From an uncultured Pseudomonadales bacterium (lineage in GTDB: Bacteria; Patescibacteriota; Microgenomatia; UBA1400; PJMF01), in the NCBI GenBank assembly GCA_964455555.1, contig CAYVXV010000001.1, positions 31,499 through 95,498 of the forward strand: a stretch of 64,000 bases of DNA. Reading direction: 5' to 3'. Position 1 is the stretch's first letter. Every line of letters begins with the position of its first letter. The translations under genes and the position numbers were made by a program. The notes beneath the pieces were generated by a model that did no database searches, was not told where the DNA came from, and saw only the letters and a list, made by a program, of their open reading frames with translations. Shown here piece by piece: positions 13,201 through 54,457 of the stretch.

Positions 13201-13897
13201 ACCGAAGGTAATCCTGAACTGCCTCAAGTGAATTTTCTCCTTGTTCTCCGAAGCGCTTGTCTTGCTGGAGGTATGTCTGTACCTCGGAAAAACGAGCATG
13301 CTGTTCATCGATTTTGCCGGCTAGATAGAGCTGAATAAGTTTGGCGGCAGTTTCGGGGTTTATTGAACCATCCTCTGCCACTTCAAGATCCATAGTATCG
13401 AGCTCTGATGCATACACCCCCAGAGTGTCTGCCGGAGCCGTAGCATAAACCTTTAATGCCTCTTTTAAGCTTTCCAGCTTTTCCTGCTCTTCTTGGGTAA
13501 GTGGTGCATGATTATCAATTGCTTCTCTAGCTCTGCTGCGAACTCTTTCTGCCACACCGGGGCGGGCCTCACCATCCTCAGTTGCATCTGCCTCATCCTC
13601 ACGTGAGGGGACAATCCTTGAGCGGAGCTCGGCGGCTTTTGCTTTAGCCTTGGAGCCTTGTTCTTTAATAAAACTGGTGAACCTGCCCAGGTTTTGGCCA
13701 ATTCTACCTTCCCTGCTAAAAAACTGGCGGGTTGAACTGAGAAAATTCTTGAGCCTGGATGGCCTTTCAGGGGCCTCTTCTTCTGGGTCGCGCGGGGCAA
13801 ATTCAGGCAGCGGCTGCGGTGTATCAGGTACTGCTGGTGTTTCCGTTCCAAAGTTTTGCACTTCTTCTTCTCTTGGACCTTGAAATTCTCCAGACAT
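10241..13897 (-). CDS. Giant low-complexity, coiled-coil-rich protein of about 1218 aa, function unknown
   Basis: Continuous ORF 10241..13969. The likely start is the Met at 13897, which has an AAAGGAG SD upstream (MSGEFQGP...). Glu/Ala/Arg-rich with an internal ~95-aa duplication (WSNRPRPIDSARSQLNRIKERR... vs WQNRPHPLDAARAKSREIKERR...). One hydrophobic segment (AAYFPGVVLLSLGGPLVAAARIGFA) and an Ala/Gly/Glu-rich C-terminus. Confidence 0.65.
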   Translation of the reverse strand: MSGEFQGPREEEVQNFGTETPAVPDTPQPLPEFAPRDPEEEAPERPSRLKNFLSSTRQFFSREGRIGQNLGRFTSFIKEQGSKAKAKAAELRSRIVPSREDEADATEDGEARPGVAERVRSRAREAIDNHAPLTQEEQEKLESLKEALKVYATAPADTLGVYASELDTMDLEVAEDGSINPETAAKLIQLYLAGKIDEQHARFSEVQTYLQQDKRFGEQGENSLEAVQDYLRLKNKEENARFQTAHEIWGRLKTAKSERDARRLSEEMSEANPDIVKMWGVAAKFNEQSNGQNLADINEAQLNGWKSNFDNQPMDALGPQVYQVVAMYMYGKMSPADFREYAPILENQGWNVDELVEIGRQFQPGVLARARKGATEAWSNRPRPIDSARSQLNRIKERRSALRERQERQQQLKDFLGDHGYSRIYDQEIIEAAREKISAGNIAEVEVHELVSVLLYATETGLSEEQVGTVMAYIENDLSPMPAYELEDGVSTPLSEILKEYFDLAGEPEGIAEPGPGFRERMSEKWQNRPHPLDAARAKSREIKERREQSAAEAEAKRVRTEQLKTFLESKGVSAIHDAELSARITAALEDESQNLDQFSPQDLAAYLLFAKDRPSGESRQRILDEIAAKTDGQDQFKYEIDGQEITFREMTAEYFDLTETGPSLRQRLGEAMRKPGEKSEAFVERIQGNAKRSLEQSLADFMEGIESQEVKEAIEKYHAGETEVHSILDEWRRNFVSGADEIGHEQVVALLLTDRIGYNRRLQDYWKANELPNKLMADIVKYKNRKFRVGLWEGDKKGKWFNATLFAVLQSANPYKVPVNRYGERQIYGEVKGEFDFEGVRERLKRTIFVQEGAMKRAAYFPGVVLLSLGGPLVAAARIGFATSSFAIEQGAKIATKGEARSFDELLDYWEANRDRGQNAVKILKRASEHAAKIADSKFGEQARLAGEGLSDAARVVLLANLLDLLAGDQIRNLAQGQGSEAAGTPAFETASGDEAGTALPLEQGIDQTADAGAADELTPSLRTPVPGEATSLEDLEGMGFQSGIDEAAAEGAAEAASGAEATVDDVRETLRGLEGSGAATDAASNAAEGTAQAAAEATTNVIVEAGDYPWSYYANQLRSMNLSADNPTVNALKNIHQHFGLFETGAQVGQEGTFLSDAVIRNIDQAMEAAMNNGASNELQELLLRLGPNTSQEVLRQIDPADVQKLIEAAANNNLQ

Positions 13898-14037
13898 ATT
13901 CTCCTTTGCAGGTGCTTTGTTGCTTAGACAATAATACAAAAACCTAACGCATGGCGCGCCTTGTTCCATTATGTCAATTTTAGAAGGGATTTACAAGTAG
14001 TTGCTACCAAGAAACCTCTATATTATTCCAACTCAAA

Positions 14038-34083: not shown

Positions 34084-34160
34084 AAGTGGTTTGCCTAACT
34101 TCTTTAGTTTTCATAAAATTCAACTCGAATAGGCATTCCTATTCGAGTATACTCAACCAT

Positions 34161-36326
34161 ATGGAAGCTAGATTTGGACCACGGCAGATTATCCTGGTGC
34201 TATACCATTTTTTAGTGCTGTCTGCTCCGCTTTTCTTCTATTTTCAAACTGAAGAACTCTTTGAGTTTAATAAAATAATCCTAGTTTATGCTCTGACCAT
34301 TTTGATTAGCGGCGCTTGGCTCTGGCGGATGATTGTGCAGAAACGCCTGATTTTTCAAAGAACTTTCTTGGACATCCCGCTTGCCCTGTTTTTCATTTCA
34401 CAATTGGCAGCCACATTACTCTCAATGCATCCAAGAACCTCTTTCTTGGGCTATTACACCCGGTTCCACGGTGGGCTGCTCTCGATGATTGCATACTATG
34501 TCCTCTACTATGCATTTGTCAGTAACTTTAGAAAAAAAGATATCCGCCCGTTGTTTTTGTCAGTGTTCGGTTCAGCCCTTTTAGTTTCGATCTATGGAAT
34601 TCTTGAGCATTTCGGCCGTTCTTTCAGCTGTTATCTGATAACCGGCGGCCAATCTTTTGGTGTCGATTGCTGGGTGCAAAAGGTTCAGGAAAGAGTTTTT
34701 GCAACCTTTGGCCAGCCCAACTGGCTGGCAGCTTATGCCATCATGCTTATACCCCCAGGCATGGCACTGAGCGCTGACAATAAATCTTCGCTGCTCAAAA
34801 GAAGTTTTTTTGCCCTAACCACTGTTCTGTTGTTTGCCACACTGCTTTTTACCAGGTCGAGGTCGGGCATGCTGGGAATTGCCGGAGGTTTATTGATCTT
34901 TTATGCCGGCTTATTTTTAATTCCCTGGATTAACAAACATAAACAAACTTTCGGAAACAAACTGCTGAAAACCGGCCTGCTTAAGTGGTCAATCGGTTTC
35001 ACGGCCGTATTTTTGCTGCTGGCTTTGGTTTTTGGCACACCCTATTCTCCTAAATTGACAGAGATTGGCAGCAGCAATGGCCAAGAGGAACCAGCCAACC
35101 AAGCCGAGCAGCCTGCGGTAAACCGCCTGGACATTGGCGGTACTGACTCTGGTGAAATCAGAAAAATTGTCTGGGAGGGCGCCCTGGGTGTCTGGAAACG
35201 GTATCCTTTGACCGGCTCCGGGGTTGAGACTTTTGCCTACAGCTACTACTTAGACCGTCCGGCCGAACACAACCTGGTTTCTGAATGGGATTTTCTATAC
35301 AACAAAGCACATAATGAGTTTCTCAATTACCTGGCTACAACCGGTGCGTTCGGCCTCTTTGCCTACACTTTTCTCCTTATCTCATTTGGGGCTGGCTTAC
35401 TAACCGCCCTCAAAAAATTGAGGGGGGATGAGCGGTCGCAATATTTGTTAATCAGCCTTCTGGCAAGTGTTGCAGCCTTGTCGATCTCAAATTTCTTTGG
35501 TTTTTCAACTGTGGTGGTCACTGCTCTAATGTTCCTCTTTTTGGCCATGACAGCCAAAGAAAAACTCCCTGACGACGCCCTTTCGGAAAAAGCCATTCCT
35601 AAAAAACAAGAGCTGCAAAGTTGGCAGTATGGGGCACTGACTGTCATTACATTAGTAGTACTGATGCTGCTTTCCCAAACTTACCGGTATTGGTCTGCTG
35701 ACATAGCATACAGCTACGGCAAAGGTCTGATGGCGGCCGGCAGGCCTCAGGAAGGCATTCTCTATTTCTCTCAAGCGATAGATCTATCGCCCAATGAAGC
35801 ACTTTTTTATGATGAGTTAGCCAGCAACTATGCCTCATTGTCGGTTGCTTTGGCTCAACAGGAAAACACTACTGCTGCGGCTGAACTCGCGGCATCTGCC
35901 ATAGAACTGAGCAACAAAACCCTAGAGCTTAACTCCTCCCACCTAAATTTCTATAAAACCAGGGCAAGAATGTTCATCACCCTCTCGCAGTTAAACGACG
36001 CCTTCTTAAAGGAAGCACGGGACACTCTGCTGGTGGCCTTGAGCAAAGCCCCCACTGACGCAAAACTTTGGTACAACATTGGTGTTGTAGAACTAAGTCA
36101 GGGCTATACCGACAAGGGCATCGAGCACCTTGAAAAAGCTGTTGATCTTAAGCCTGATTATGAATCCGCCCGCATGCAACTGGCAGCTCAATATCAGCTT
36201 AAAGAGAATTTTGAAAAAGCAGAAGAGCAATACCGATATATCCTTGAGGAAATTAATCCTCAGAGTACTGAGGCTATTGAAAATCTTGAAGCAATAAGGG
36301 CTTTGAATGCCGATACAACTCGTTAA
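34161..36326 (+). CDS. O-antigen ligase (Wzy_C/WaaL-like) polytopic membrane protein fused to C-terminal TPR repeats
   Basis: ORF 34086..36326; probable start MEARFGPRQ at 34161. Over 10 TM helices, a periplasmic loop pattern (FGQPNWLAAYAIM...TRSRSGMLG) like O-antigen polymerase/ligase, then TPR-like repeats (AIDLSPNEALFYDELASNY...KLWYNIGVVELSQGYTDKGIEHLEKAVDLKPDY). Confidence 0.6.
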   Translation: MEARFGPRQIILVLYHFLVLSAPLFFYFQTEELFEFNKIILVYALTILISGAWLWRMIVQKRLIFQRTFLDIPLALFFISQLAATLLSMHPRTSFLGYYTRFHGGLLSMIAYYVLYYAFVSNFRKKDIRPLFLSVFGSALLVSIYGILEHFGRSFSCYLITGGQSFGVDCWVQKVQERVFATFGQPNWLAAYAIMLIPPGMALSADNKSSLLKRSFFALTTVLLFATLLFTRSRSGMLGIAGGLLIFYAGLFLIPWINKHKQTFGNKLLKTGLLKWSIGFTAVFLLLALVFGTPYSPKLTEIGSSNGQEEPANQAEQPAVNRLDIGGTDSGEIRKIVWEGALGVWKRYPLTGSGVETFAYSYYLDRPAEHNLVSEWDFLYNKAHNEFLNYLATTGAFGLFAYTFLLISFGAGLLTALKKLRGDERSQYLLISLLASVAALSISNFFGFSTVVVTALMFLFLAMTAKEKLPDDALSEKAIPKKQELQSWQYGALTVITLVVLMLLSQTYRYWSADIAYSYGKGLMAAGRPQEGILYFSQAIDLSPNEALFYDELASNYASLSVALAQQENTTAAAELAASAIELSNKTLELNSSHLNFYKTRARMFITLSQLNDAFLKEARDTLLVALSKAPTDAKLWYNIGVVELSQGYTDKGIEHLEKAVDLKPDYESARMQLAAQYQLKENFEKAEEQYRYILEEINPQSTEAIENLEAIRALNADTTR

Positions 36327-40137: not shown

Positions 40138-41055
40138 TTGTGTATTATGACTAACTCAGAAACTAACAAATCAGCTGAACCAATCAAAAGAGCTATTATT
40201 ACCGCCGCTGGCTTTGGTTCCCGCTTTCTACCGATAACTAAAACTTTTCCCAAGGAAATGCTGCCGATTATTGATAAGCCGATTATTCAATACCTGGTTG
40301 AAGAGTGCGCCGAGGCCGGTATTGAAGAGGTCATCATTGTTGTTTCTCCGGGTGAGGTAACCAAATTTGAGGATTATTTTTACGGCAGCGCCACCAACAT
40401 CCGCACCCTGATGATCCGTCAAGGCAAGTTTGATCGCTGGGACAAAGTTGACCAGGTTTTTAAGCTGCCCAAAATAACCATCATGCCCCAAGACGAGCGC
40501 CTGCCTTATGGCAACGGCCGGCCTATCCTGACAGCCAAGCAGCTAGTGGAAAATGATCCGGCTTTTGTAGTGATGTGGGGTGATGATTTAGTGTTGAGCA
40601 AGGTTAGCGCAGTTAAACAAATTGTAGATTTTTATTATCAAAACCCTGACTCCGACGGAGTTTTGGCTGTTCAAGAAGTCCCGGATGAAGAAGTAGACAG
40701 ATATGGTGTAGTCAAACTGAAAGCAGGCTCTGATGATGCTGTGGAAATGATTATTGAGAAACCAAAGCGCGAGGATGCTCCTTCCAACCTAGTGTCATAC
40801 GGGCGCTATGTGCTTACGCCAAAAGTTTTTGAGTTTTTGGATGCTGAAGCCACTGGACTTGACGGTGAATTGTGGCTGCAGGATGCCAACCATCAGGTGG
40901 CCAAGAATGGCAAAGTCCGGATTAAGGTAGTCGACGGCGAGTGGTTGACCACCGGCGACCCACTCCGATACATGAAAGCCCATGTTAAATTTATGATGGC
41001 TCAAGAGAGTTATAGAAAAGATCTAATACCTTTCCTAAAAGAATTAACTGATTAA
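40138..41055 (+). CDS. galU: UTP--glucose-1-phosphate uridylyltransferase
   Basis: 305 aa. AAGFGSRFLPITKTFPKEMLPIIDKPIIQY is the GalU G-x-G-T-R-x-L-P-x-T-K signature. Paralog at 51596..52489. Confidence 0.8.
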   Translation: MCIMTNSETNKSAEPIKRAIITAAGFGSRFLPITKTFPKEMLPIIDKPIIQYLVEECAEAGIEEVIIVVSPGEVTKFEDYFYGSATNIRTLMIRQGKFDRWDKVDQVFKLPKITIMPQDERLPYGNGRPILTAKQLVENDPAFVVMWGDDLVLSKVSAVKQIVDFYYQNPDSDGVLAVQEVPDEEVDRYGVVKLKAGSDDAVEMIIEKPKREDAPSNLVSYGRYVLTPKVFEFLDAEATGLDGELWLQDANHQVAKNGKVRIKVVDGEWLTTGDPLRYMKAHVKFMMAQESYRKDLIPFLKELTD

Positions 41056-41352: not shown

Positions 41353-42189
41353 ATGAAACCAAACGCCTGCCCGCGAACGGTTAAGCCGTTCAAACTTTAT
41401 ACTAGTATTGTTGGCATCCTGCTAATGCTGGGTGTCGGACAAGCCGCCACCCCGGAAGCGGAAATTTCTCCCCAATCAGACATCAAGGGTATGTTTCAGC
41501 AACAGCTGCGCAATTTGAGTGAATCAGCGCTCGGAACTGAATCTCAAAATCCTTCTGATAATCCGCAGTTTGCCACAATCAAAGACTTGCCTGACTTTTC
41601 GGAAAAAAATATCCGTGTTGGCCTGCAAGTCGGTCACTGGCAAAACGACAATCCTCCAGCCGAACTATCTTGGATCAAGAGAAACACCGGCGCCAACGGC
41701 GGCGGCAAATGGGAATCTGAGATAGCCTTGGATATTGTCAATCACGCCAAAGACATTCTTGAGCGCCAAGGCATTGCGGTCGATATCATTCCTGCTGTCG
41801 TTCCACCAGGCTATAGGGCTGATGTCTTTGTTTCCGTTCATGCGGACGGCAGCGACAAAAATCCCAATGCCTCCGGTTACAAAATAGCCCCATCTGCCAG
41901 AGATCAAAGCGGCCAAGCCGGCAATCTTTTCCAAGCTGTCTCTGCTGCTTATGCCGAAGAAACTCATATGCGCTGGGATAACAATATTACAACCAACATG
42001 ACTCATTACTACTCCTTCGCTGATCATAAATACACTCACTCTATATCACCTGAAACACCTGCAATTCTATTGGAAACCGGTTTTCTGACGAACAGTGCCG
42101 ACCGCTATTTCCTGGTAGATCACCCAGAAATTCCGGGAAGAGGTTTGGCATACGGCATTGTTGACTACCTGGTTCAAGCCGGCAAGTAA
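41353..42189 (+). CDS. N-acetylmuramoyl-L-alanine amidase, Amidase_3 family (cell-wall hydrolase), membrane-anchored
   Basis: 278 aa. N-terminal TM/signal, VGLQVGHW (GH motif), IALDIVNHAKDILERQGIAVDI, ADVFVSVHADGSD...NASGYKIA parallel the Amidase_3 blocks (DxGHGG ... SIHAD ... G). Confidence 0.6.
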   Translation: MKPNACPRTVKPFKLYTSIVGILLMLGVGQAATPEAEISPQSDIKGMFQQQLRNLSESALGTESQNPSDNPQFATIKDLPDFSEKNIRVGLQVGHWQNDNPPAELSWIKRNTGANGGGKWESEIALDIVNHAKDILERQGIAVDIIPAVVPPGYRADVFVSVHADGSDKNPNASGYKIAPSARDQSGQAGNLFQAVSAAYAEETHMRWDNNITTNMTHYYSFADHKYTHSISPETPAILLETGFLTNSADRYFLVDHPEIPGRGLAYGIVDYLVQAGK

Positions 42190-44071: not shown

Positions 44072-45010
44072 TTAAAGACCAAACTTTTCTGAGAGTTTTT
44101 CAATCATGACTTCAGTCATTTTACTAAGGTCAAACTCATGTTCCCAACCCCAGTCGCGACGGGCTACAGAGTCATCGATGGAATTCGGCCATGAATCGGC
44201 AATATTCTGCCGGTGGTCCGGTGCATAAGTTACCTCCACCGGCAAGTGCTTGTTGATTTCAGCGGCCAACTCTGCAGCGGTAAAACTAAATGCGGCAAAG
44301 TTGTAACTCGTCCGGACGGAAAGGCTGGTGGGGTCGGCTTCCATCAAATCGATAGTGCCTTTTACCGCATCATCCATATACATCATTGGCAAAGTAGTTT
44401 CCTCGTTCACAAAACAGGTGTACCGGCCGGTTTGCAGGCCATCATAAAAAATTGCCACAGCATAGTCGCTGGTGCCGCCACCCGGCTCAGCTTTCCAGCT
44501 GATTAAACCCGGATAACGGATACTCCTGACATCAACACCATATTTAAGGAAATAGTAGTGGCAAAGGTTTTCGCCGGTGACTTTGGTAACGCCATACATA
44601 GTGGTTGGTTCGAGCACTGTTTGCTGAGGAGTATTGTCGCGGGGTGTGGTCGGGCCAAAAGCAGCAATTGAGCTTGGCCAAAAAACCTTGAGCTGATATT
44701 CCTTGGCTAAATCCAAAACGTCTTTGAGGCTCTGGACATTTATTTCCCAAGTTATACTGGGATTTTCTTCACCTTTGGCTGATAGCAGAGAAACCATGTG
44801 ATAAATAGTGCCGACATTGTGTTTTTCAATCAAGGTTTTCAAACCCTCAAGGTTTGGTAGCTCCAGCGTTTCAACAATTCCTTCAAAATCTGCTGGCACA
44901 TTCCGGTTGCCCATGGCAACAATGTTTTCTTGGCCGTATTTCTTTTGAAGAGCCGGCACAAGTTCGCTTCCAATCTGTCCAAAGGCACCGGTTACAAGGA
45001 TTTTTTTCAT
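44072..45010 (-). CDS. tdh: L-threonine 3-dehydrogenase, NAD-dependent epimerase/dehydratase (SDR) type
   Basis: 312 aa. ILVTGAFGQIGSELVPAL Rossmann motif and YxxxK (YGVTKVTGE) as in UDP-glucose-epimerase-like TDH. Directly upstream of kbl. Confidence 0.75.
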   Translation of the reverse strand: MKKILVTGAFGQIGSELVPALQKKYGQENIVAMGNRNVPADFEGIVETLELPNLEGLKTLIEKHNVGTIYHMVSLLSAKGEENPSITWEINVQSLKDVLDLAKEYQLKVFWPSSIAAFGPTTPRDNTPQQTVLEPTTMYGVTKVTGENLCHYYFLKYGVDVRSIRYPGLISWKAEPGGGTSDYAVAIFYDGLQTGRYTCFVNEETTLPMMYMDDAVKGTIDLMEADPTSLSVRTSYNFAAFSFTAAELAAEINKHLPVEVTYAPDHRQNIADSWPNSIDDSVARRDWGWEHEFDLSKMTEVMIEKLSEKFGL

Positions 45011-48858: not shown

Positions 48859-48926
48859 GCAAATATTATATCATCGTGAGGAATGCGCTTGGTTTGGAGT
48901 ATGCTGGATGAAATGTGGGAAATTTG

Positions 48927-48999
48927 CAGGGCCGGAGGGATTCGAACCCCCACGAGAGGTTTTGGAGACCCCCATGCTAGCCATTAACATCACGGCCCT
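48927..48999 (-). tRNA. tRNA-Trp (anticodon CCA)
   Basis: Minus-strand read gives AGGGCCG-UG-AUGUUAAUGGCUAGCAU-G-GGGGU-CUCCAAA-ACCUC-UCGUG-GGGGG-UUCGAAU-CCCUC-CGGCCCU-g. A 7-bp acceptor pairs perfectly, T-loop TTCGAAT, anticodon loop CU-CCA-AA. CCA end not encoded. Confidence 0.85.
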
Positions 49000-49062
49000 A
49001 GGATTAATATTGTAACATGCTGCCACTAGACCTGGCTTCTTGTGTTGCGCTATTCTTAATGC

Positions 49063-50379
49063 ATGTCCAACCTCTTCGACCCCCATTTAACAAAAACTTA
49101 CCAGCAGGACAAGAAATTCCTCGAGCTTTCAAAAATTCCCATCGTCACCGTCTCTTCCAGTTATCAGGAAGACCTCAAGCGGATGCATGGCCTGCCCAAC
49201 AATGAAACTGACCGCGACGTGGTTTTTTCCCGCGCCCACTACTCGATGGCGCTGGGTGTAGCAACCTATGCCTGGAAGGAAAAAGTTGACCCCCAAAAAG
49301 CCTGGGTAGTCGACCCCACCAACTATGTTTCCAAAGATAAATGGTTTTCCATTCAATTAACAGAAATTATCGGTAAAACCATTGCCCGCAACTCTATACT
49401 GAAAACAGCCAAGGATTTTATAGACCGGTTTGCCCGAAAAAAGCTACCGATTTTGGACAGTATCACACCACCGCTGCTTTACCTGACTGAACATATTAAA
49501 AAACCTATCCTCTCTTTTCATATTGCTGCCGGAAATATCCTGGCTGGACAAGGAAAAACAGTTGTTCAGGTGGTGACTGATCCGCATGTCCGCGCTGAAT
49601 ATGTAACATATGCTGACAAAAAAAATATTAGTTTTTGTGTTTTTGATGAAGCCACCAAAGTGGATTTTCTGGAACAGGCGGCTAAACTGGATATCAAAGC
49701 CGATCCAGACCGGGTGATCGTGACCGGCCCGCCAATTGACCCAAGGATTATCGCTGCAAAAAATGAGAAAAACCCCTGGAGAAGCGGCATCCTGCGGCTT
49801 TGCATCACTACCGGAGGCCTAGGAACGAACAAGGAAGAAATTCTGAAGATGCTCAGGCAATTTCTACCTGAATTGCGCAAGCGCTCGCTGGAATACCAGC
49901 TGCTGGTCTACGCCGGCACCCAGCATGATATTGCCGATGAAGTTGAAAAACTGGCTCAGGAAAACAGGATTGCAATTGGCGGTCTTAATGATAAAAAAGC
50001 CAAGCTCAGGCTGATTTACCATCCTCAAATTGTTGATGCCAATGAAATGCTGATTAAGCATGGTTTCCCTTGGGCTCACGGTTTTATAACCAAACCATCA
50101 GGAGATATGGCTTATGACGCAGCCGCATCGGGCAGCTTCATCCTCACCATGGCAGAATGGGGTGAATGGGAGGAACGGATTCGGGTTATTTTTGAGCAGA
50201 AGAATATAGGCCGTACTGCCGACACCAACTCGATTATTTCTCAGCTGGAAGTCCTCCGCTCGGCTCAAAGAAAGTCGCAATCCTGGATTGAGCAAGCCAT
50301 GCACAATGCCCAAAAACTCGAGCCGCTCTATCTGAATGGGGCTAAAGGCATTTTAAATGCCGTTAAACAAGCCGGCTAA
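49063..50379 (+). CDS. Hypothetical protein, possible GT-B fold glycosyltransferase (MurG/MGDG-synthase-like)
   Basis: 438 aa. LRLCITTGGLGTNKEEI resembles the C-terminal-domain G-rich loop of GT28-type transferases (VTGGSxGA). Weak, overall-pattern call. Confidence 0.4.
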   Translation: MSNLFDPHLTKTYQQDKKFLELSKIPIVTVSSSYQEDLKRMHGLPNNETDRDVVFSRAHYSMALGVATYAWKEKVDPQKAWVVDPTNYVSKDKWFSIQLTEIIGKTIARNSILKTAKDFIDRFARKKLPILDSITPPLLYLTEHIKKPILSFHIAAGNILAGQGKTVVQVVTDPHVRAEYVTYADKKNISFCVFDEATKVDFLEQAAKLDIKADPDRVIVTGPPIDPRIIAAKNEKNPWRSGILRLCITTGGLGTNKEEILKMLRQFLPELRKRSLEYQLLVYAGTQHDIADEVEKLAQENRIAIGGLNDKKAKLRLIYHPQIVDANEMLIKHGFPWAHGFITKPSGDMAYDAAASGSFILTMAEWGEWEERIRVIFEQKNIGRTADTNSIISQLEVLRSAQRKSQSWIEQAMHNAQKLEPLYLNGAKGILNAVKQAG

Positions 50380-50395
50380 GCACAAAATTCAGCAG

Positions 50396-50427
50396 TAAAA
50401 ATCCCCCTTTTTCAGGGGGATTTCTGC
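50396..50427. terminator. Bidirectional rho-independent terminator between convergent genes (glycosyltransferase-like ORF and rpmG)
   Basis: AAAAATCCCCC-TTTTTCA-GGGGGATTTCT: 7-bp G/C stem flanked by an A-run and a T-run. Confidence 0.65.
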
Positions 50428-50448
50428 TTTGAATTTGCGAGACAGATA

Positions 50449-50652
50449 TTATTTCAGCTTTTTAGCCATTTTATGCTCTGAATGCTTGTGGCAAACATTA
50501 CAGTACTTGTTGAGCGGGAAAGTGCTCACGTTTTTGGTCTGCTTCATTAAGAGTTCATTGTTTTTGTTGTATTCAGTAACGTAATTAAATGAATTACAAA
50601 CAGAACATTGCAAACCAGCTATCTGTCTTGGTCCTTTTTTTGCTTTTGCCAT
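50449..50652 (-). CDS. rpmG: 50S ribosomal protein bL33
   Basis: ORF 50449..50679; probable start at the internal Met at 50652. MAKAKKGPRQIAGLQCSVCNSFNYVTEYNKNN...KYCNVCHKHSEHK has the two CxxC pairs and spacing of bL33. Confidence 0.8.
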   Translation of the reverse strand: MAKAKKGPRQIAGLQCSVCNSFNYVTEYNKNNELLMKQTKNVSTFPLNKYCNVCHKHSEHKMAKKLK

Positions 50653-50726
50653 ATATTCCTTTTTCTTTTTGTGTTTCAAAATCGCTTAATTTAAGAGATG
50701 TAGTATACCATACCAGGCAATTACTG

Positions 50727-50800
50727 AGCCATCTCGGGGATTCGAACCCCGGACCTACGGTTTACAAAACCGTCGCTCTAACCAACTGAGCTAAGATGGC
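50727..50800 (-). tRNA. tRNA-Thr (anticodon UGU)
   Basis: Minus-strand read: GCCAUCU-UA-GCUC-AGUUGGUUA-GAGC-G-ACGGU-UUUGUAA-ACCGU-AGGUC-CGGGG-UUCGAAU-CCCCG-AGAUGGC-u. Perfect acceptor and anticodon stems; loop UU-UGU-AA. Confidence 0.85.
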
Positions 50801-50968
50801 GTGCGTTTGACATTAGCTCATTGAGCACGGCTGGCGCCTTCTCCAGCCTCCTTGAGCTATCTACCCAGACTAATTATAACCTGAAAACTTCAATGACGGC
50901 AGCTCAAAGGGCTCAATTCACTAATATCTTATCGCTGCCTTAGTGAAAAATTTGCTCACTATTCTATG

Positions 50969-51051
50969 TGCCAGGTGTAGGATTCGAACCTACGAAGGCG
51001 TAAACCAGCAGATTTACAGTCTGCCCCCGTTGACCGCTTGGGTAACCTGGC
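50969..51051 (-). tRNA. tRNA-Tyr (anticodon GUA), long variable arm
   Basis: Minus-strand read: GCCAGGU...GCAGA-CUGUAAA-UCUGC-UGGUUUACGCCUUCG (long variable arm)-GUAGG-UUCGAAU-CCUAC-ACCUGGC-a. Anticodon loop CU-GUA-AA. 83 nt, consistent with bacterial type II tRNA-Tyr. Confidence 0.85.
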
Positions 51052-51111
51052 GAGTCTGCCCCAAGCAAGCTTGAGGCATGGCACAGTATAACAAATTTTC
51101 CTGAATTTGCC

Positions 51112-51186
51112 TGGAGCCCAGAGAGGGAATTGAACCCTCGACCTCTTTCTTACCAAGAAAGCGTTCCACCACTGAACTATCTGGGC
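51112..51186 (-). tRNA. tRNA-Thr (anticodon GGU), 3-prime CCA encoded
   Basis: Minus-strand read: GCCCAGA-UA-GUUC-AGUGGUG-GAAC-G-CUUUC-UUGGUAA-GAAAG-AGGUC-GAGGG-UUCAAUU-CCCUC-UCUGGGC-U-CCA. Perfect acceptor; anticodon loop UU-GGU-AA. Confidence 0.85.
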
Positions 51187-51595: not shown

Positions 51596-52489
51596 TTAGC
51601 CTTGAGAGGCCGTCATTTTCTCGACCCACTCCGCTATTTTGCTGCCATAATCCTCATACTCCAATGCGAATTTTAAATGAGCCTTAAAATAGTTTTCCGG
51701 ATCGCCGGTGGTCATCCAATGGCCTTCGCTTTTGCCAACCATAACTTTACTTTTCTTGGCGATCTGAGTAATGGCGTCAACGGTCCAAAGCTCACCGTCT
51801 TTGCCGGTATTGGTTGGGTTCAAATACTCAAAAACCTCTGGTGTAAGCAGGTAGCGGCCATATGAAGCGAGCCTGGAAGGCTCAGTCCCTTTATCTGGTT
51901 TCTCTACAATATTATCCAAGTACTGATCTGAACCAGATTGGAAACTAATAATTCCATACTTGTCCACTACTTCTGCGCTGACTTCCTGAGACATAATAAT
52001 GCCGGAAACATCGGGGTTTTGCTCATAAAGGTCCACCATTATTTTGGCATCGCCGGGATTGCCAAAAACCACGTCATCACTATAGAGGACCAGAAAGGCT
52101 TTCTCCTTATCTATAAATTTTTCTGCCGAAGCTACCGGTGACCCATTGCCGTAAGGCAAACTAGGGTCTTGGGTAATGACGACTATTTTTGGAAAGTCTA
52201 AGACATGCTGAACCGGTTCATAGCGATCCGATTTGCCTTGTGCCTGGAGCTGCTTGCGGATCCGGTTGACGTTGTTGTTGAAATAATCTTCGTAGATTGG
52301 CTTGCCCTCAGGTGTGGCAACGATAATGATTTCTTCAATGCCGGCTTCCGCACACTCCTCGACTATAAATTGCATAATCGGCCGGTTGCCGAATGGCAGC
52401 ATAGCTTTGGGCACAGTCTTGGTAATAGGCAGGTAGCGGCTGGCAAAACCAGCGTCAGTGACTATTGCTTTGCGGACTAACTTTTCCAT
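51596..52489 (-). CDS. galU: UTP--glucose-1-phosphate uridylyltransferase, second paralog
   Basis: 297 aa. KAIVTDAGFASRYLPITKTVPKAMLPFGNRPIMQFIVEECAEAGIEEIIIV is near-identical in motif layout to the GalU at 40138..41055 (also shares ...ECAEAGIEE...). Confidence 0.75.
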   Translation of the reverse strand: MEKLVRKAIVTDAGFASRYLPITKTVPKAMLPFGNRPIMQFIVEECAEAGIEEIIIVATPEGKPIYEDYFNNNVNRIRKQLQAQGKSDRYEPVQHVLDFPKIVVITQDPSLPYGNGSPVASAEKFIDKEKAFLVLYSDDVVFGNPGDAKIMVDLYEQNPDVSGIIMSQEVSAEVVDKYGIISFQSGSDQYLDNIVEKPDKGTEPSRLASYGRYLLTPEVFEYLNPTNTGKDGELWTVDAITQIAKKSKVMVGKSEGHWMTTGDPENYFKAHLKFALEYEDYGSKIAEWVEKMTASQG

Positions 52490-52599
52490 GGCATCTCCTC
52501 GATCTACGCCTTATGCTGCTTCATACAATTTCATACATAATACCGTAATTCTTTCTCTGTCTACAATCAGCAAAAAAAATCATGTACTATTGTATATAG

Positions 52600-54189
52600 A
52601 TGAAACCTGCTCTAAAGCGTGTAGTTTTTAGCGTCCCCAATTTACTGCCTTTTGCCGGCCTATTACTAGTCATTTCCGGAGTGATTGGTATCTTTTACAC
52701 TCAGGAAGCCCTTCAGGAATCTCAAGAAATCCGGTCAAGCGCTTCCGGCGAAAGCGGCCAGGTTTTAATTGCTCCCCTCACCTCTCCAAGCACGACTATC
52801 AAAGGCTTAGTCCAAGAGCAGGTGATTTCTTTAGGAATTAACACTCAAAATCTGCCGCTTAAAGAATTTTCGGTGGTATTTAATGCCATTACTGATGTTG
52901 CAGACACGCTTGAGTTAGTGCCAAGCAACCTAGTTGGTTTTGAAGTTACCGCAGAAACACAAAAAACAGCCGACGGCTTCCTGGCTACCGCCGTTTTTAC
53001 CAGGACCAGCCAGAATTTCCTATCCAACTACAACCAAAAATTTTTGGAAATTCATTTTGAACCTGCTAAAGCCGGAACAATCGAACTTAATTTTGACCGC
53101 GAGCTTTCCGTAGCGCTTCACGCTGACAACAGCTCTGATATTCTTAAACACATTGCCGATGCTACTTTTACCATCGCCGCCAGTGAAGCTGACCCCACTT
53201 ACAAAGCCTGCAACGAAACCTGCAGCTCCAACGCCGAATGCCAATCTGGTTTCCGCTGCTTTAATACCGGCAGTGAATCGCGCTGCCGCCTGGTAACCAA
53301 CCCATCGAGCTCCACCTGCAGCTCAGAAAGCACTTTAAAATCCTGCAATCAAAGCTGCGGCGGCAGCGCTGAATGCCAAAGTGGCCTGAGCTGCATTAAC
53401 AGCATCTGCAGAAACCCGAATAATCCCGAAAGCTCCAGCTGCAGCAACCCAACTCAACAAGCAGAAACTCAAGCAGCCAGCTGCAATGAAGCCTGCACCA
53501 CCAATGCTGACTGCGCGGTAAATTTCCGCTGCTACTACAATCAATGCCGGCTGGCTACCAATCCTTCAAGTACCAGCTGCAGTGCAGATACGACTTCCAC
53601 TGTGTCTTCGCTCTACCAAAAGGAACCAGTAGAAACCGCTACACCATCTGCCCTGCCAACCTCACCGGCTCCTGAAACCAGCACAGAAAATGAAGAAACC
53701 CCAGAAGAATTTCAGCCAGAGGAGTCAGAACCAGTGACCCAACCCCAGGAACAACCTTTGGATCCGGATGAAACTTCACTTCAAGCCCTGCTGAGCGTCC
53801 TCGGCAGCTCAACTTTCCGCCTGCCCAGCACAGTCTTGGTTGCTGGAGCCATCTTGCTGCTTGTCGGCGGAGCAGTCTTTGTTGCCGCCTCCTCCAGAAA
53901 GAAACCGACCACTGTAGCTATGACAAAAACCGGCGTACCGCCTGCTCCACCTCCCAGAGAAACACCGCCTCCTTATGGGGCACCTCCTCAACCTCCGTCG
54001 CCGCAAACAGCACCTCCGCTAGCACCACCTTCGCAGTCAGCGCCTCCACAAGCAGCACCGCCGCAACCCGTACCTCCGCCTAACCAATCAGTTCCAATGG
54101 CTGAACGGTCATCTTCGATGGTTGAACGGCTCAAACAAAAAGGGATTACGCCGCCAAGCACAGGCAATCAGCAGCCAAAAGACCAATAG
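52600..54189 (+). CDS. Membrane-anchored protein with three tandem Cys-rich modules, Ser/Thr/Pro linker, C-terminal TM helix and Pro-rich tail (contains PPPY)
   Basis: 529 aa. N-terminal signal/anchor (VVFSVPNLLPFAGLLLVISGVIGIF). Three ~40-aa repeats, each C-x3-C-x5-C-x5-C-x4-6-C-x9-11-C (CNETCSSNAECQSGFRCFNTGSESRC... / CNQSCGGSAECQSGLSCINSICRN... / CNEACTTNADCAVNFRCYYNQCRL...). TM LPSTVLVAGAILLLVGGAVFVAASS followed by RKK. Tail PPAPPPRETPPPYGAPPQPPSPQTAPPLAPP... Confidence 0.6.
   Translation: MKPALKRVVFSVPNLLPFAGLLLVISGVIGIFYTQEALQESQEIRSSASGESGQVLIAPLTSPSTTIKGLVQEQVISLGINTQNLPLKEFSVVFNAITDVADTLELVPSNLVGFEVTAETQKTADGFLATAVFTRTSQNFLSNYNQKFLEIHFEPAKAGTIELNFDRELSVALHADNSSDILKHIADATFTIAASEADPTYKACNETCSSNAECQSGFRCFNTGSESRCRLVTNPSSSTCSSESTLKSCNQSCGGSAECQSGLSCINSICRNPNNPESSSCSNPTQQAETQAASCNEACTTNADCAVNFRCYYNQCRLATNPSSTSCSADTTSTVSSLYQKEPVETATPSALPTSPAPETSTENEETPEEFQPEESEPVTQPQEQPLDPDETSLQALLSVLGSSTFRLPSTVLVAGAILLLVGGAVFVAASSRKKPTTVAMTKTGVPPAPPPRETPPPYGAPPQPPSPQTAPPLAPPSQSAPPQAAPPQPVPPPNQSVPMAERSSSMVERLKQKGITPPSTGNQQPKDQ
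53206..53570 (+). repeat. Intragenic tandem repeat: three ~120-nt units encoding Cys-rich modules
   Basis: Recurring tgcagctc / gaatgccaa / agctgc words in DNA. The protein-level 6-Cys spacing is conserved across three consecutive units. Confidence 0.5.
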
Positions 54190-54271
54190 GTCCTAAAAAT
54201 ATTAAAATACCGTTCAGAGGAGCACTAGAGGAACAGCTATTCCCTATTCTATTTGCTTTTGCTACAATACC

Positions 54272-54457
54272 ATGTCTATGGTTAGCCCAACTTCTTACTT
54301 ACAACAGGTTGCTCGTGAACTTAAAAAAGTTACCTGGCCCAGCAGAGCCCAAACCACTGAAATGACTATTTTGGTAATAATAGTAAGTTTGATAGTTGGA
54401 GCATACCTCGGTATACTTGACTACATTTTTCAAACACTAATGGCAGTCATTCTATAA
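54272..54457 (+). CDS. secE: Preprotein translocase subunit SecE
   Basis: 61 aa. VARELKKVTWPSRAQTTEMTILVIIVSLIVGAYLGILD is the single-TM SecE core. Immediately upstream of nusG. Confidence 0.8.
   Translation: MSMVSPTSYLQQVARELKKVTWPSRAQTTEMTILVIIVSLIVGAYLGILDYIFQTLMAVIL

What the first reader, a model, noticed from the sequence alone, without database searches (positions are those of the whole stretch)
52600..54189. Bitopic membrane protein with three tandem 6-Cys modules and a proline-rich cytoplasmic tail containing a PPxY motif
The architecture reads signal/anchor, ~170-aa N-domain, three ~40-aa Cys-rich repeats with fixed Cys spacing (C-x3-C-x5-C-x5-C-...), S/T/P/E linker, TM helix, RKK, then a ~100-aa tail that is roughly 40 percent Pro (PPAPPPRETPPPYGAPPQPPSPQ...). 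Disulfide-rich tandem modules and a PPxY are more typical of eukaryotic surface proteins and are unusual for a bacterium. In an epibiotic or small-genome lineage this could be an adhesin or host-interaction protein. It sits between a tRNA cluster with a galU paralog and the secE-nusG operon.
Basis: seen in the sequence. Interest (0 to 1): 0.6.

Follow-up and report, generated by a model that had tools for sequence, protein, structure and literature searches.

The report
Membrane-anchored cohesin scaffold of Patescibacteria
This gene encodes a cell-surface protein of an ultra-small (CPR/Patescibacteria) bacterium with a cohesin-like head on a stalk of three disulfide-rich mini-domains; in related species a gene for a dockerin-tagged secreted protein sits directly beside it, so it most likely holds partner proteins on the cell surface.

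Summary
The ORF (52600-54189, +, 529 aa) and its described architecture are real. All 18 Cys are invariant in 21 homologs, and about 133 cluster representatives keep exactly three modules. The PPxY is chance: 4 of 133 tails have one.

New findings:
- In 15 of 29 species-representative loci, the gene directly upstream on the same strand encodes a secreted protein ending in a Pfam dockerin. One such cargo domain is fused into the head of other family members.
- The 6-Cys module has no Pfam or NCBIfam model. It is knottin-like, related to the Dumpy DPY module, and occurs in 959 protein clusters.
- The gene lies directly upstream of secE-nusG in 27 of 29 loci, but secE has its own conserved promoter.
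- The cytoplasmic tail ends in a conserved peptide, SM[LMV][ED]R[LI]KxKG[IV], with no known partner.

Best reading: a membrane-anchored cohesin scaffoldin that displays dockerin-tagged proteins. For this genome that is inferred from orthologs, because no dockerin gene lies in the 64 kb. It is a new variant of a known kind.

The parts
52585..52590 (+). Possible -10 box (TACTAT) 9 nt upstream of the ATG of the gene, suggesting a leaderless or short-leader mRNA. Tentative.
   Evidence: Read from the sequence. A TAnnnT box 7-10 nt upstream of a candidate start codon was seen in 17 of 29 loci scanned (28 homologous loci plus the window). This is a weak pattern test only.
52600..54189 (+). Whole ORF, 529 aa plus stop: the cohesin-headed membrane protein, called 'X' in the report.
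   Evidence: P0001 is the identical protein in public data.
52600..52698 (+). N-terminal signal/anchor, residues 1-33: basic n-region (K2, K6, R7) followed by a hydrophobic segment of about 26 aa.
   Evidence: Hydropathy. The segment is conserved in all homologs.
52723..52743 (+). Post-TM motif QEIRSSA (residues 42-48), family consensus Q[DE]xRxxA with A48 invariant. Probably the c-region or processing site of a lineage-typical export signal.
   Evidence: A48 invariant, R45 at least 90% conserved. A loose regex finds the motif in 124 of 150 representatives. It also occurs in sortase-type Cys-module proteins (P0154, P0140) and in a neighbouring dockerin mini-protein (L014). Cleavage itself is inferred, not shown.
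52750..53193 (+). Cohesin-fold head domain, residues 51-198.
53209..53319 (+). 6-Cys module 1, residues 204-240 (CNETC...CRLVTNPSSSTC).
   Evidence: All Cys are invariant. Mean pairwise identity is 62%.
53344..53442 (+). 6-Cys module 2, residues 249-281.
   Evidence: Mean pairwise identity is 55%. The module keeps position-specific features (CNxYCAD..EC in most homologs).
53482..53580 (+). 6-Cys module 3, residues 295-327 (CN..C..NADCA.NLRCY.G.CRLATNPSSTSC type).
   Evidence: Mean pairwise identity is 67%. This is the module kept in minimal one-module relatives (P0032, P0035).
53581..53823 (+). Acidic S/T/P-rich stalk and juxtamembrane segment, residues 328-408, ending in ...DETSLQALL...RLP.
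   Evidence: Composition. Across 133 representatives the distance from the last Cys to the TM is tightly distributed (quartiles 79/87/95.5 aa) while sequence identity is only about 21%.
53824..53895 (+). Transmembrane helix, residues 409-432, followed by RKK.
   Evidence: Hydropathy maximum of 2.7. G416 is invariant. LPXTG-type models score below their cutoffs.
53896..54186 (+). Cytoplasmic Pro-rich tail, residues 433-529.
   Evidence: 31% Pro in the window protein. Across the family, tails are 30-283 aa with a median of 17% Pro.
53965..53976 (+). PPPY (residues 456-459). Not conserved; judged coincidental.
   Evidence: A PPxY occurs in 4 of 133 family tails.
54115..54156 (+). Conserved C-terminal peptide SMVERLKQKGITPP (residues 506-519), family consensus S-M-[LMV]-[ED]-R-[LI]-K-x-K-G-[IV]-x-x-P. 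Its partner is unknown.
   Evidence: Found in 98 of 133 representatives. It always lies 4-16 residues before the stop codon and appears nowhere else in about 415 kb of window plus loci.
54260..54268 (+). Extended -10 promoter element TGCTACAAT of secE, 9 nt upstream of the ATG at 54278. Predicts a leaderless secE mRNA and an independent transcription unit.
   Evidence: TGnTA[CA]AAT lies mostly 8-9 nt before the secE ATG in 28 of 32 loci by regex (26 of these read TACAAT). The other four carry TAGAAT or TATACT variants at the same spacing.

Best explanation
The gene encodes a Patescibacteria-specific surface protein that works as a membrane-anchored 'anchoring scaffoldin'.

Proposed mechanism, with shown and inferred steps marked:
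1. Export. The protein is exported through an N-terminal signal/anchor. Cleavage near the invariant Ala of the Q[DE]xRxxA motif is inferred, not shown.
2. Layout outside the cell. The ectodomain is extracytoplasmic (supported by charge distribution and by the module's occurrence in sortase-type proteins). It consists of a divergent cohesin head, three disulfide-stabilised knottin/DPY-like 6-Cys modules, and an S/T/P-rich stalk of about 85 residues. The modules and stalk together would hold the head away from the membrane, across the wall. The spacer role is inferred from the constant stalk length despite unconserved sequence.
3. Anchoring. A single TM helix anchors the protein.
4. Function of the head. 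The head binds the C-terminal dockerin of secreted proteins and so displays them on the cell surface. This is inferred from gene neighbourhood and a domain fusion in orthologs. Binding has not been shown.
5. Cytoplasmic side. The Pro-rich cytoplasmic tail ends in a conserved, partly amphipathic basic peptide that probably docks to an unknown cytoplasmic or membrane partner. This is inferred from conservation only.

In the window's own genome the dockerin partner is not in the 64 kb read, so the function here is inferred by orthology.
For: - Sequence-level link to cohesin: family member P0086 passes Pfam Cohesin (37.6 bits against a cutoff of 24.1) at the position equivalent to the window head.
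- Gene neighbourhood: in 15 of 29 GTDB species-representative loci, the ORF immediately upstream of the gene on the same strand ends in a dockerin (local HMM). All 13 neighbours scanned hit Pfam Dockerin_1 at their C-terminus. Ten are above the 22.9-bit cutoff and three are just below it. L031 has further dockerin ORFs just downstream.
- Domain fusion (Rosetta stone): the cargo domain of the L007 dockerin protein (residues 103-242) is 33% identical (E = 3e-25) to residues 260-408 of family member P0020, where it is fused into the ectodomain ahead of the Cys modules.
- Swappable heads on a constant chassis: heads range from 6 to 707 aa and include cohesin, CARDB and LRR domains, or no head at all. 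Three modules, the stalk, the TM and the tail stay constant.
- Extracellular location: positive-inside charges, and the same module occurs in LPxxG-terminated proteins.
- Orthology across loci: the position directly upstream of secE-nusG is fixed in 27 of 29 loci.
Against: - The window protein's head does not reach any Pfam Cohesin score, and a profile of the heads finds no cohesin among PDB sequences. Only the fold and one relative link it to cohesins.
- No dockerin is encoded in the 64-kb window (regex; HMM), nor next to the closest homolog P0002.
- 14 of 29 species loci lack an adjacent dockerin gene.
- Cohesin-like beta-sandwiches can bind other ligands.
- If the N-terminal anchor is not cleaved, the head stays close to the membrane rather than distal.
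- The model does not explain the conserved cytoplasmic tail.
Confidence: 0.6

Rival explanations
1. Direct adhesin or host-interaction receptor. The head and/or the Cys modules bind a host-cell surface ligand themselves, and the tail signals or anchors inside the epibiont.
For: - The head and stalk evolve fast (27% and 21% mean identity) while NusG next door is 78-93% identical. This is typical of exposed, diversifying surfaces.
- Heads are swapped for LRR or CARDB domains in relatives.
- Knottin-like modules are frequent ligand binders.
- Patescibacteria are described as largely epibiotic, with surface proteins predicted to act as adhesins (PMC11665869).
Against: - The most conserved parts, the three modules, are position-specifically invariant across species. 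That fits a structural chassis better than a host-specific binder.
- The dockerin neighbour and the domain-fusion evidence point to a protein partner from the same cell.
- Nothing here ties the protein to a host.
- This rival is not exclusive of the best explanation, because the cargo may be the adhesin.
Confidence: 0.2
2. Constitutive envelope strut. The protein is a membrane-to-wall or S-layer spacer or anchor whose head holds an envelope layer, and it does not display variable cargo.
For: - The stalk length is near-constant (quartiles 79/87/95.5 aa) despite an unconserved sequence.
- The core-genome position next to secE-nusG-rplKA is fixed in 27 of 29 loci.
- Minimal family members lack a head altogether (P0134, P0149, P0032).
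Against: - The dockerin neighbours carry diverse cargo domains ranging from 134 to about 600 aa.
- No SLH or S-layer-type domains were detected in the 13 neighbours scanned or in the window protein.
Confidence: 0.12
3. Secretion-monitoring (translation-arrest) protein that regulates secE, by analogy with SecM-secA, MifM-yidC2 and VemP-secDF2. The conserved C-terminal peptide (...KGITPP) would stall the ribosome until the protein is inserted into the membrane.
For: - The gene lies directly upstream of a Sec gene on the same strand, with gaps of mostly 8-116 nt.
- It has an N-terminal export signal and a conserved peptide 4-16 residues before the stop codon.
- Known monitoring substrates share these features (PMC7897499, listed; 10.1101/2023.09.02.556018).
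Against: - secE has its own conserved extended -10 element 8-9 nt before its ATG, predicting a leaderless mRNA with no Shine-Dalgarno site to sequester.
- The junction region shows no excess RNA structure (mean z = -0.1 over 29 junctions: the window plus 28 loci).
- The PP dipeptide is present in only 33 of 98 motifs, and a whole subfamily ends in ...KELLKTLENKQKD instead.
- TM-to-motif distances range widely, with tails of 30-283 aa.
- The protein is 500-1000 aa with a conserved ectodomain, unlike the small known monitors.
Confidence: 0.03
4. The Cys clusters are metal (Zn or Fe-S) ligands in a cytoplasmic domain rather than disulfides.
For: Only the high Cys density (18 Cys in 124 residues).
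Against: - The charge distribution places the domain outside the cell.
- The same module occurs in sortase-signal proteins.
- The AF2 model superposes on disulfide-knotted toxins at 0.6-2 A rmsd.
- The spacing equals that of the three-disulfide kissper domain and contains the core of the DPY module.
Confidence: 0.02

Closest known systems
Cellulosomal anchoring scaffoldins (for example C. thermocellum OlpA/OlpC/SdbA-type cohesin proteins) and non-cellulosomal cohesin-dockerin pairs
   Same: - The protein is attached to the cell.
- Partner proteins carry a C-terminal duplicated Ca-binding dockerin (Pfam Dockerin_1) and are encoded nearby.
   Different: - The anchor is a transmembrane helix with a long cytoplasmic tail, not SLH repeats or a sortase signal.
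- There is a single cohesin.
- The spacer is three 6-Cys modules plus an S/T/P stalk.
- The cargo proteins have no glycoside-hydrolase or any other Pfam domain.
- The organism is a roughly 1-Mb-genome Patescibacterium.
- The window protein itself does not match Pfam Cohesin.
Inhibitor cystine knot (knottin) mini-proteins and the Dickkopf/draxin Cys-rich domains
   Same: - Six Cys with loop lengths 3-5-5-4(8)-10 fall inside the commonly quoted ICK spacing ranges (from my own knowledge).
- Single modules of the AF2 model superpose on EETI-II, hanatoxin, psalmotoxin and lambda-MeuKTx-1 at 0.6-2 A over 24-34 residues, with target-normalised TM-scores of 0.6-0.77.
   Different: - The knotted connectivity could not be checked.
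- The modules are internal, tandem parts of a large membrane protein rather than free toxins or inhibitors, and they are bacterial.
Dumpy DPY module (Pfam PF21164; PDB 1OIG)
   Same: - The core C2-x5-C3-x5-C4-x4-C5-R of the module aligns with the DPY module. The single-module profile against PDB sequences gives E = 1.4e-4 at 25.2 bits.
- Relative P0086 passes the Pfam cutoff (28.6 bits against 27).
- Both are extracellular spacer-type modules.
   Different: - DPY has 4 Cys. This module adds an outer Cys pair (C1 and C6) and a conserved CRL-x-x-NP-x-S tail.
- The window protein scores only 11.7 bits.
- DPY is a metazoan extracellular-matrix module.
Kissper domain of plant kiwellins (PDB 4PMK, 2HLG)
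   Same: - My reading of the kiwellin N-terminus from memory gives identical six-Cys spacing (C-x3-C-x5-C-x5-C-x4-C-x10-C). The alignment itself shows C1 to C5 and a similar start (CNGPC...DC...L.C..G.C).
- Kissper is about 40 aa with 3 disulfides and is described as EGF- or toxin-like (PMC9813671).
   Different: - The match is not statistically significant (E = 0.075-0.3).
- Kissper is a single N-terminal domain of a plant defence protein.
- Kiwellins were reported as absent from bacteria (PMC9813671).
- The resemblance may be convergent.

Membership tests
Cohesin module (Pfam PF00963) | Flattened beta-sandwich (jelly-roll) cohesin fold of about 140 aa. | tested here: met
   [not shown]
Cohesin module (Pfam PF00963) | Sequence match to the family model above its gathering score. 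| tested here: not met
   The window protein has no hit even at E up to 10. None of the 21 heads matches. A profile of the heads finds no cohesin among PDB sequences. One family member, P0086, does pass: 37.6 bits against a cutoff of 24.1 at residues 61-181, positionally equivalent to the window head.
Cohesin module (Pfam PF00963) | Binds a dockerin module (Ca2+-dependent). | not testable with these tools
   Indirect evidence only. Dockerin-ending ORFs lie directly upstream in 15 of 29 species loci. All 13 neighbours scanned hit Pfam Dockerin_1. A cargo domain is fused into relative P0020.
Cellulosomal anchoring scaffoldin | Cell-wall anchoring by SLH repeats or a sortase (LPXTG) signal. | tested here: not met
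   No SLH hit in Pfam. LPXTG-type NCBIfam models score 8.7-14.3 bits, below their cutoffs, and the TM is followed by a 97-aa tail. The anchor is a TM helix instead.
Cellulosomal anchoring scaffoldin | Dockerin-bearing partners are carbohydrate-active enzymes. | tested here: not met
   The 13 neighbouring dockerin proteins have no Pfam domain other than Dockerin_1, apart from sub-threshold EF-hand and FG-GAP hits on the dockerin itself. PDB sequence searches hit only the dockerin part significantly.
Knottin / inhibitor cystine knot | Six Cys with ICK-compatible loop lengths in about 30-40 aa. | tested here: met
   Loop lengths are 3-5-5-8/4/4-10 in all three modules. The consensus ranges are taken from my own knowledge.
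Knottin / inhibitor cystine knot | Knottin fold by structure comparison. | tested here: inconclusive
   [not shown]
Knottin / inhibitor cystine knot | Knotted connectivity C1-C4, C2-C5, C3-C6. | not testable with these tools
A DPY-like alternative (C1-C6, C2-C4, C3-C5) is not excluded.
Dumpy DPY module (PF21164) | Match to the family model above its gathering score (27 bits). | tested here: not met
   The window protein scores 11.7 bits, E = 0.26. The 56-module profile matches the DPY structure sequence 1OIG at E = 1.4e-4. Relative P0086 scores 28.6 bits.
PPxY (WW-domain ligand) motif | Motif conserved in orthologs. | tested here: not met
   Present in 4 of 133 family tails. Absent from the closest homolog P0002.
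Sec/YidC monitoring substrates (SecM, MifM, VemP, RAPP-type) | Encoded directly upstream of a Sec/YidC gene, with an export signal and a conserved C-terminal motif. | tested here: met
Sec/YidC monitoring substrates (SecM, MifM, VemP, RAPP-type) | Translation of the downstream gene depends on an mRNA structure that the stalled ribosome opens. | tested here: not met
   secE has a conserved extended -10 element 8-9 nt before its ATG, predicting a leaderless mRNA. The junction shows no excess folding (mean z = -0.1).
Sec/YidC monitoring substrates (SecM, MifM, VemP, RAPP-type) | Ribosome stalling at the motif. | not testable with these tools
   This needs toeprinting or an in vitro translation system. 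The PP dipeptide is present in only 33 of 98 motifs.

The most novel reading that the evidence does not exclude
Patescibacteria (at least the Microgenomates-like clade sampled here) possess a minimal, core-genome-encoded cohesin-dockerin display system. A type-I membrane scaffoldin would carry interchangeable heads and use dockerin-tagged, so far uncharacterised cargo proteins to form the cell's interaction surface with hosts or substrates. Its conserved cytoplasmic C-terminal peptide would couple that surface to an intracellular partner. This would make it a bacterial counterpart of a receptor with a cytoplasmic docking motif.
Probability: 0.25. Interest if true: 0.75.

Novelty: new variant of a known kind. 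Interest (0 to 1): 0.6.

Why it matters
How ultra-small, host-dependent Patescibacteria build and use their cell surface is largely unknown, and most of their surface proteins are unannotated.

What this family offers:
- It is conserved, sits at a fixed position in the core genome, and is easily recognised by sequence.
- It links three things that can be tested directly. The first is a divergent cohesin with genetically adjacent dockerin cargo, for which binding pairs can be made recombinantly. The second is an undescribed bacterial 6-Cys extracellular module found in 959 protein clusters with no Pfam or NCBIfam model. The third is a conserved cytoplasmic peptide that can be used as bait.
- It would also extend cohesin-dockerin biology to a membrane-anchored, non-cellulolytic, minimal-genome setting.

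Tried and rejected
- PPxY as a functional motif: rejected. It occurs in 4 of 133 tails.
- Arrest-peptide regulation of secE: considered because of the position and the C-terminal motif. Rejected as unlikely after finding secE's own leaderless-type promoter, no junction RNA structure and a non-conserved PP.
- Sortase substrate: rejected. Scores are sub-threshold and the tail is long.
- Pfam and NCBIfam scans of the window protein gave nothing above cutoff.
- A Pfam scan of the 21 heads gave only chance-level hits.
- PDB sequence searches with profiles of the head and of the three-module region were uninformative, apart from a weak kiwellin hit.
- The search for homologous proteins with the 3-module alignment returned only 6 proteins, though these included useful minimal one-module relatives. 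The single-module alignment was too short for that tool.
- The afdb50 fold library was unavailable, so the taxonomic spread of the module by structure could not be assessed.
- Cluster look-up gave no useful names.
- Dockerin searches of the window (regex, HMM) and of the closest homolog's locus were negative.
- Rfam found only the four tRNAs around the gene.
- Literature searches for cohesin, dockerin, knottin or Cys-rich proteins in CPR bacteria found nothing describing this family.
- The cargo domains of the dockerin neighbours have no PDB or Pfam relatives.
Full report
**Observation.**
The ORF at 52600-54189 (+) encodes 529 aa. Hydropathy gives two hydrophobic segments, at residues ~8-33 and 409-432. 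Basic residues precede the first (K2, K6, R7) and follow the second (R433-K434-K435). This implies an N-in, ectodomain-out, C-in topology.

The 18 Cys form three modules, at residues 204-240, 249-281 and 295-327. Their spacing is C-x3-C-x5-C-x5-C-x8/4/4-C-x10-C.

The tail is 31% Pro overall and 43% Pro in its 60-aa core. It contains PPPY at residues 456-459. The window protein has no Pfam or NCBIfam hit above cutoff.

**The family.**
A first homology search found about 25 proteins with the same architecture at 28-44% identity, all unnamed or 'hypothetical'. In a 21-sequence alignment all 18 Cys are invariant. So are the R after the fifth Cys and an Asn in every module, the L following that R in modules 1 and 3, and A48, F165, D166 and G416.

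A profile of the single module was searched against 1.84 billion cluster representatives. It finds 959 clusters at E<=1e-3 and 285 at E<=1e-10. Of the 150 family-type sequences analysed (the top hits of that search plus the homologs), 133 share one layout:
- an N-terminal TM;
- usually a Q[DE]xRxxA motif;
- a head of variable size, from 6 to 707 aa;
- exactly three modules;
- a stalk of nearly constant length (quartiles 79/87/95.5 aa);
- one TM, with a mean net charge of +3 in the 12 residues after it;
- a tail of 30-283 aa.

In 98 of the 133, the tail ends with the peptide S-M-[LMV]-[ED]-R-[LI]-K-x-K-G-[IV]-x-x-P.

PPxY occurs in only 4 of 133 tails, so it is coincidental.

Conservation varies strongly by region. 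The modules show 55-67% mean identity, the head 27%, and the stalk and tail about 21%. Each module is position-specific, which suggests an old triplication with distinct roles.

Other proteins carry 4-9 copies of the module and end in LPxxG-type sortase signals (P0123, P0154, P0163, P0033, P0027). The module is therefore a general extracellular building block of this lineage.

**Organism and locus.**
All 30 related loci in GTDB species representatives are Patescibacteria MAGs. Their labels are Pacebacteria, Paceibacterota, Woesebacteria or 'Patescibacteria group'. Several TPA assemblies labelled 'Pseudomonadales' and one labelled 'Vitreimonas' look mislabelled.

In 27 of 29 species loci the gene lies directly upstream of secE-nusG-rplK-rplA on the same strand. 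A galU-like NTP-transferase gene usually lies upstream on the other strand.

NusG is 78-93% identical across these loci, while this protein is only 27-44% identical (52% over one short partial match). The gene is therefore positionally fixed but evolves fast.

**The head is a cohesin.**

At the sequence level neither the window head nor any of the 21 aligned heads reaches Pfam Cohesin. One family member does: P0086 scores 37.6 bits against a cutoff of 24.1 at residues 61-181, the equivalent position.

**Dockerin neighbours.**
A dockerin-pattern scan of the fetched loci, followed by a local HMM, gave the key result. In 15 of the 29 species loci (L014-16, L018-20, L026-27, L030-36), the ORF immediately upstream of the gene on the same strand ends in a duplicated Ca-binding dockerin. 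In the loci examined in detail this ORF stops 7-24 nt before the gene.

All 13 of these neighbours that were scanned hit Pfam Dockerin_1 at the C-terminus. Ten are above the 22.9-bit cutoff and three just below. None has any other Pfam domain. They have N-terminal export signals and unrelated 'cargo' parts of 134 to about 600 aa. L031 has two more dockerin ORFs just downstream.

There is also a domain-fusion link. The cargo domain of the L007 neighbour is 33% identical (E=3e-25) to a segment fused into the ectodomain (residues 260-408, ahead of the Cys modules) of family member P0020. By eye, the same segment is present in P0037, P0056, P0121, P0151 and P0160.

Together these observations argue that the head captures dockerin-tagged secreted proteins. 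The protein would then be a membrane-anchored anchoring scaffoldin.

The caveat is that the window itself has no dockerin gene in its 64 kb, and neither does the locus of the closest homolog. For this genome the function is inferred from orthologs.

**The Cys modules.**
The AF2 model of residues 200-332 has pLDDT 76. Each module forms a short turn plus a beta-hairpin.

Structure searches give weak but thematically consistent hits:
- Foldseek aligns single modules with ICK toxins and EETI-II at 0.6-2 A rmsd over 24-34 residues, with target-normalised TM-scores of 0.6-0.77.

By sequence, the module profile matches the Drosophila Dumpy DPY module 1OIG at E=1.4e-4. It also matches, non-significantly (E=0.075), the kissper domain of kiwellin. 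From my own recollection of the kiwellin N-terminal sequence, kissper has the identical six-Cys spacing; the alignment itself covers C1 to C5.

The simpler 4-Cys core hairpin (C-x5-C-x5-C-x4-C) recurs in unrelated long repeat proteins (P0104, P0159).

The disulfide connectivity, whether knotted or DPY-like with an outer staple, could not be determined.

**Relation to secE.**
I considered that the gene might be a secretion monitor, like SecM, MifM or VemP. The reasons were its position, its export signal and its conserved C-terminal peptide. The evidence argues against this:
- An extended -10 element, TGnTA[CA]AAT, lies mostly 8-9 nt before the secE ATG in 28 of 32 loci. The other four carry close variants at the same spacing.
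- That element predicts a leaderless secE mRNA with its own promoter. In L022-24 the stop codon of the gene supplies the TG of the element.
- The junction shows no excess RNA folding (mean z = -0.1).
- PP is present in only 33 of 98 motifs.
- One subfamily has a different C-terminus.

In the window the element is at 54260-54268. This suggests that secE starts at 54278 rather than 54272.

**Unexplained.**
- The cytoplasmic tail and its terminal peptide have no identified partner. The peptide occurs nowhere else in about 415 kb of window plus loci.
- Some family members also have a YExELQxKIxxLK segment after the TM, which the window protein lacks.
- The N-terminal Q[DE]xRxxA motif lies about 9-15 residues after the hydrophobic segment. 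From my own knowledge, this is too far for a canonical signal-peptidase-I site. The motif is shared by unrelated exported proteins of the lineage (P0028, P0029, P0035, P0140, P0154 and the L014 dockerin mini-protein). It is probably a lineage-typical processing signal, but this is not shown.

**Verdict.**
The protein is best described as a new architectural variant of a cohesin-type surface scaffold. It is built on an undescribed bacterial 6-Cys module, in a lineage where I found no description of it.

Noticed in passing
window 54260-54280; loci L002-L037 just upstream of secE: A conserved extended -10 element (TGnTACAAT; TAGAAT or TATACT in a few loci) lies mostly 8-9 nt before the secE ATG in essentially all loci. 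This predicts a leaderless secE mRNA. In the window it favours ATG 54278 over 54272 as the secE start. In L022-24 the stop codon of the upstream gene forms part of the element.
   Followed up: partly
window 52723-52743; P0028, P0029, P0035, P0140, P0154; L014 3559-3960: An N-terminal motif Q[DE]xRxxA lies about 9-15 residues after the signal/anchor helix. It is shared by otherwise unrelated exported proteins of this lineage, including sortase-type Cys-module proteins and a dockerin mini-protein. It may be an unusual signal-peptide processing site. No other ORF in the window has it.
   Followed up: partly
L007 4972-5976, L019 2353-3924, L034 3274-3933, L014 3559-3960 and equivalents in 15 loci: Secreted proteins with a C-terminal dockerin carry cargo domains that have no Pfam or PDB relatives. 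One cargo domain ('NWKTEHAFLQADSF...TLEVMWAENDQEMRFFAYFY') also occurs fused inside long family members. Its function is unknown.
   Followed up: partly
window 10241-13969 (-): A 1242-aa ORF with no Pfam hit. It is acidic and Ala/Glu-rich, has an internal duplication (around NRPRPIDSARSQLNRIKERR... and NRPHPLDAARAKSREIKERR...), and has a hydrophobic stretch near residues 885-915.
   Followed up: no
window 49063-50379 (+): A 438-aa ORF with no Pfam hit is syntenic in most related loci at 56-67% identity. It lies next to rpmG and the tRNA cluster. By eye it looks like a GT-B-type glycosyltransferase, but this was not tested.
   Followed up: no
window 40138-41055 (+) and 51596-52489 (-): There are two NTP_transferase (galU/rmlA-like) genes in one 64-kb window. 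Wzy_C/TPR (34086-36326), epimerase (44072-45010) and amidase_3 (41353-42189) genes lie nearby, so the region is rich in envelope-glycan genes. The S/T-rich stalk could be a glycosylation target, which is speculation.
   Followed up: no
loci L014, L017, L020, L021, L023, L024, L026, L028-L030, L032, L035, L036; L002: Many MAG records carrying this Patescibacteria-type locus are titled 'Pseudomonadales bacterium', and one is titled 'Vitreimonas sp.'. The gene content and roughly 1-Mb contigs indicate that these taxon labels are wrong.
   Followed up: no
P0032 (238 aa), P0035 (249 aa), P0134, P0149: Minimal family members keep only the anchor, one or three Cys modules, the stalk, the TM and the tail with its C-terminal peptide, and have no head. 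The chassis therefore appears to have a function of its own.
   Followed up: no
window 50449-50679 (-), 48926-51186: rpmG (L33) and the tRNA-Trp/Thr/Tyr/Thr genes lie on the opposite strand from secE-nusG. From general knowledge, many bacteria have a co-directional rpmG-secE-nusG arrangement. The studied gene and the galU-like gene occupy the gap.
   Followed up: no
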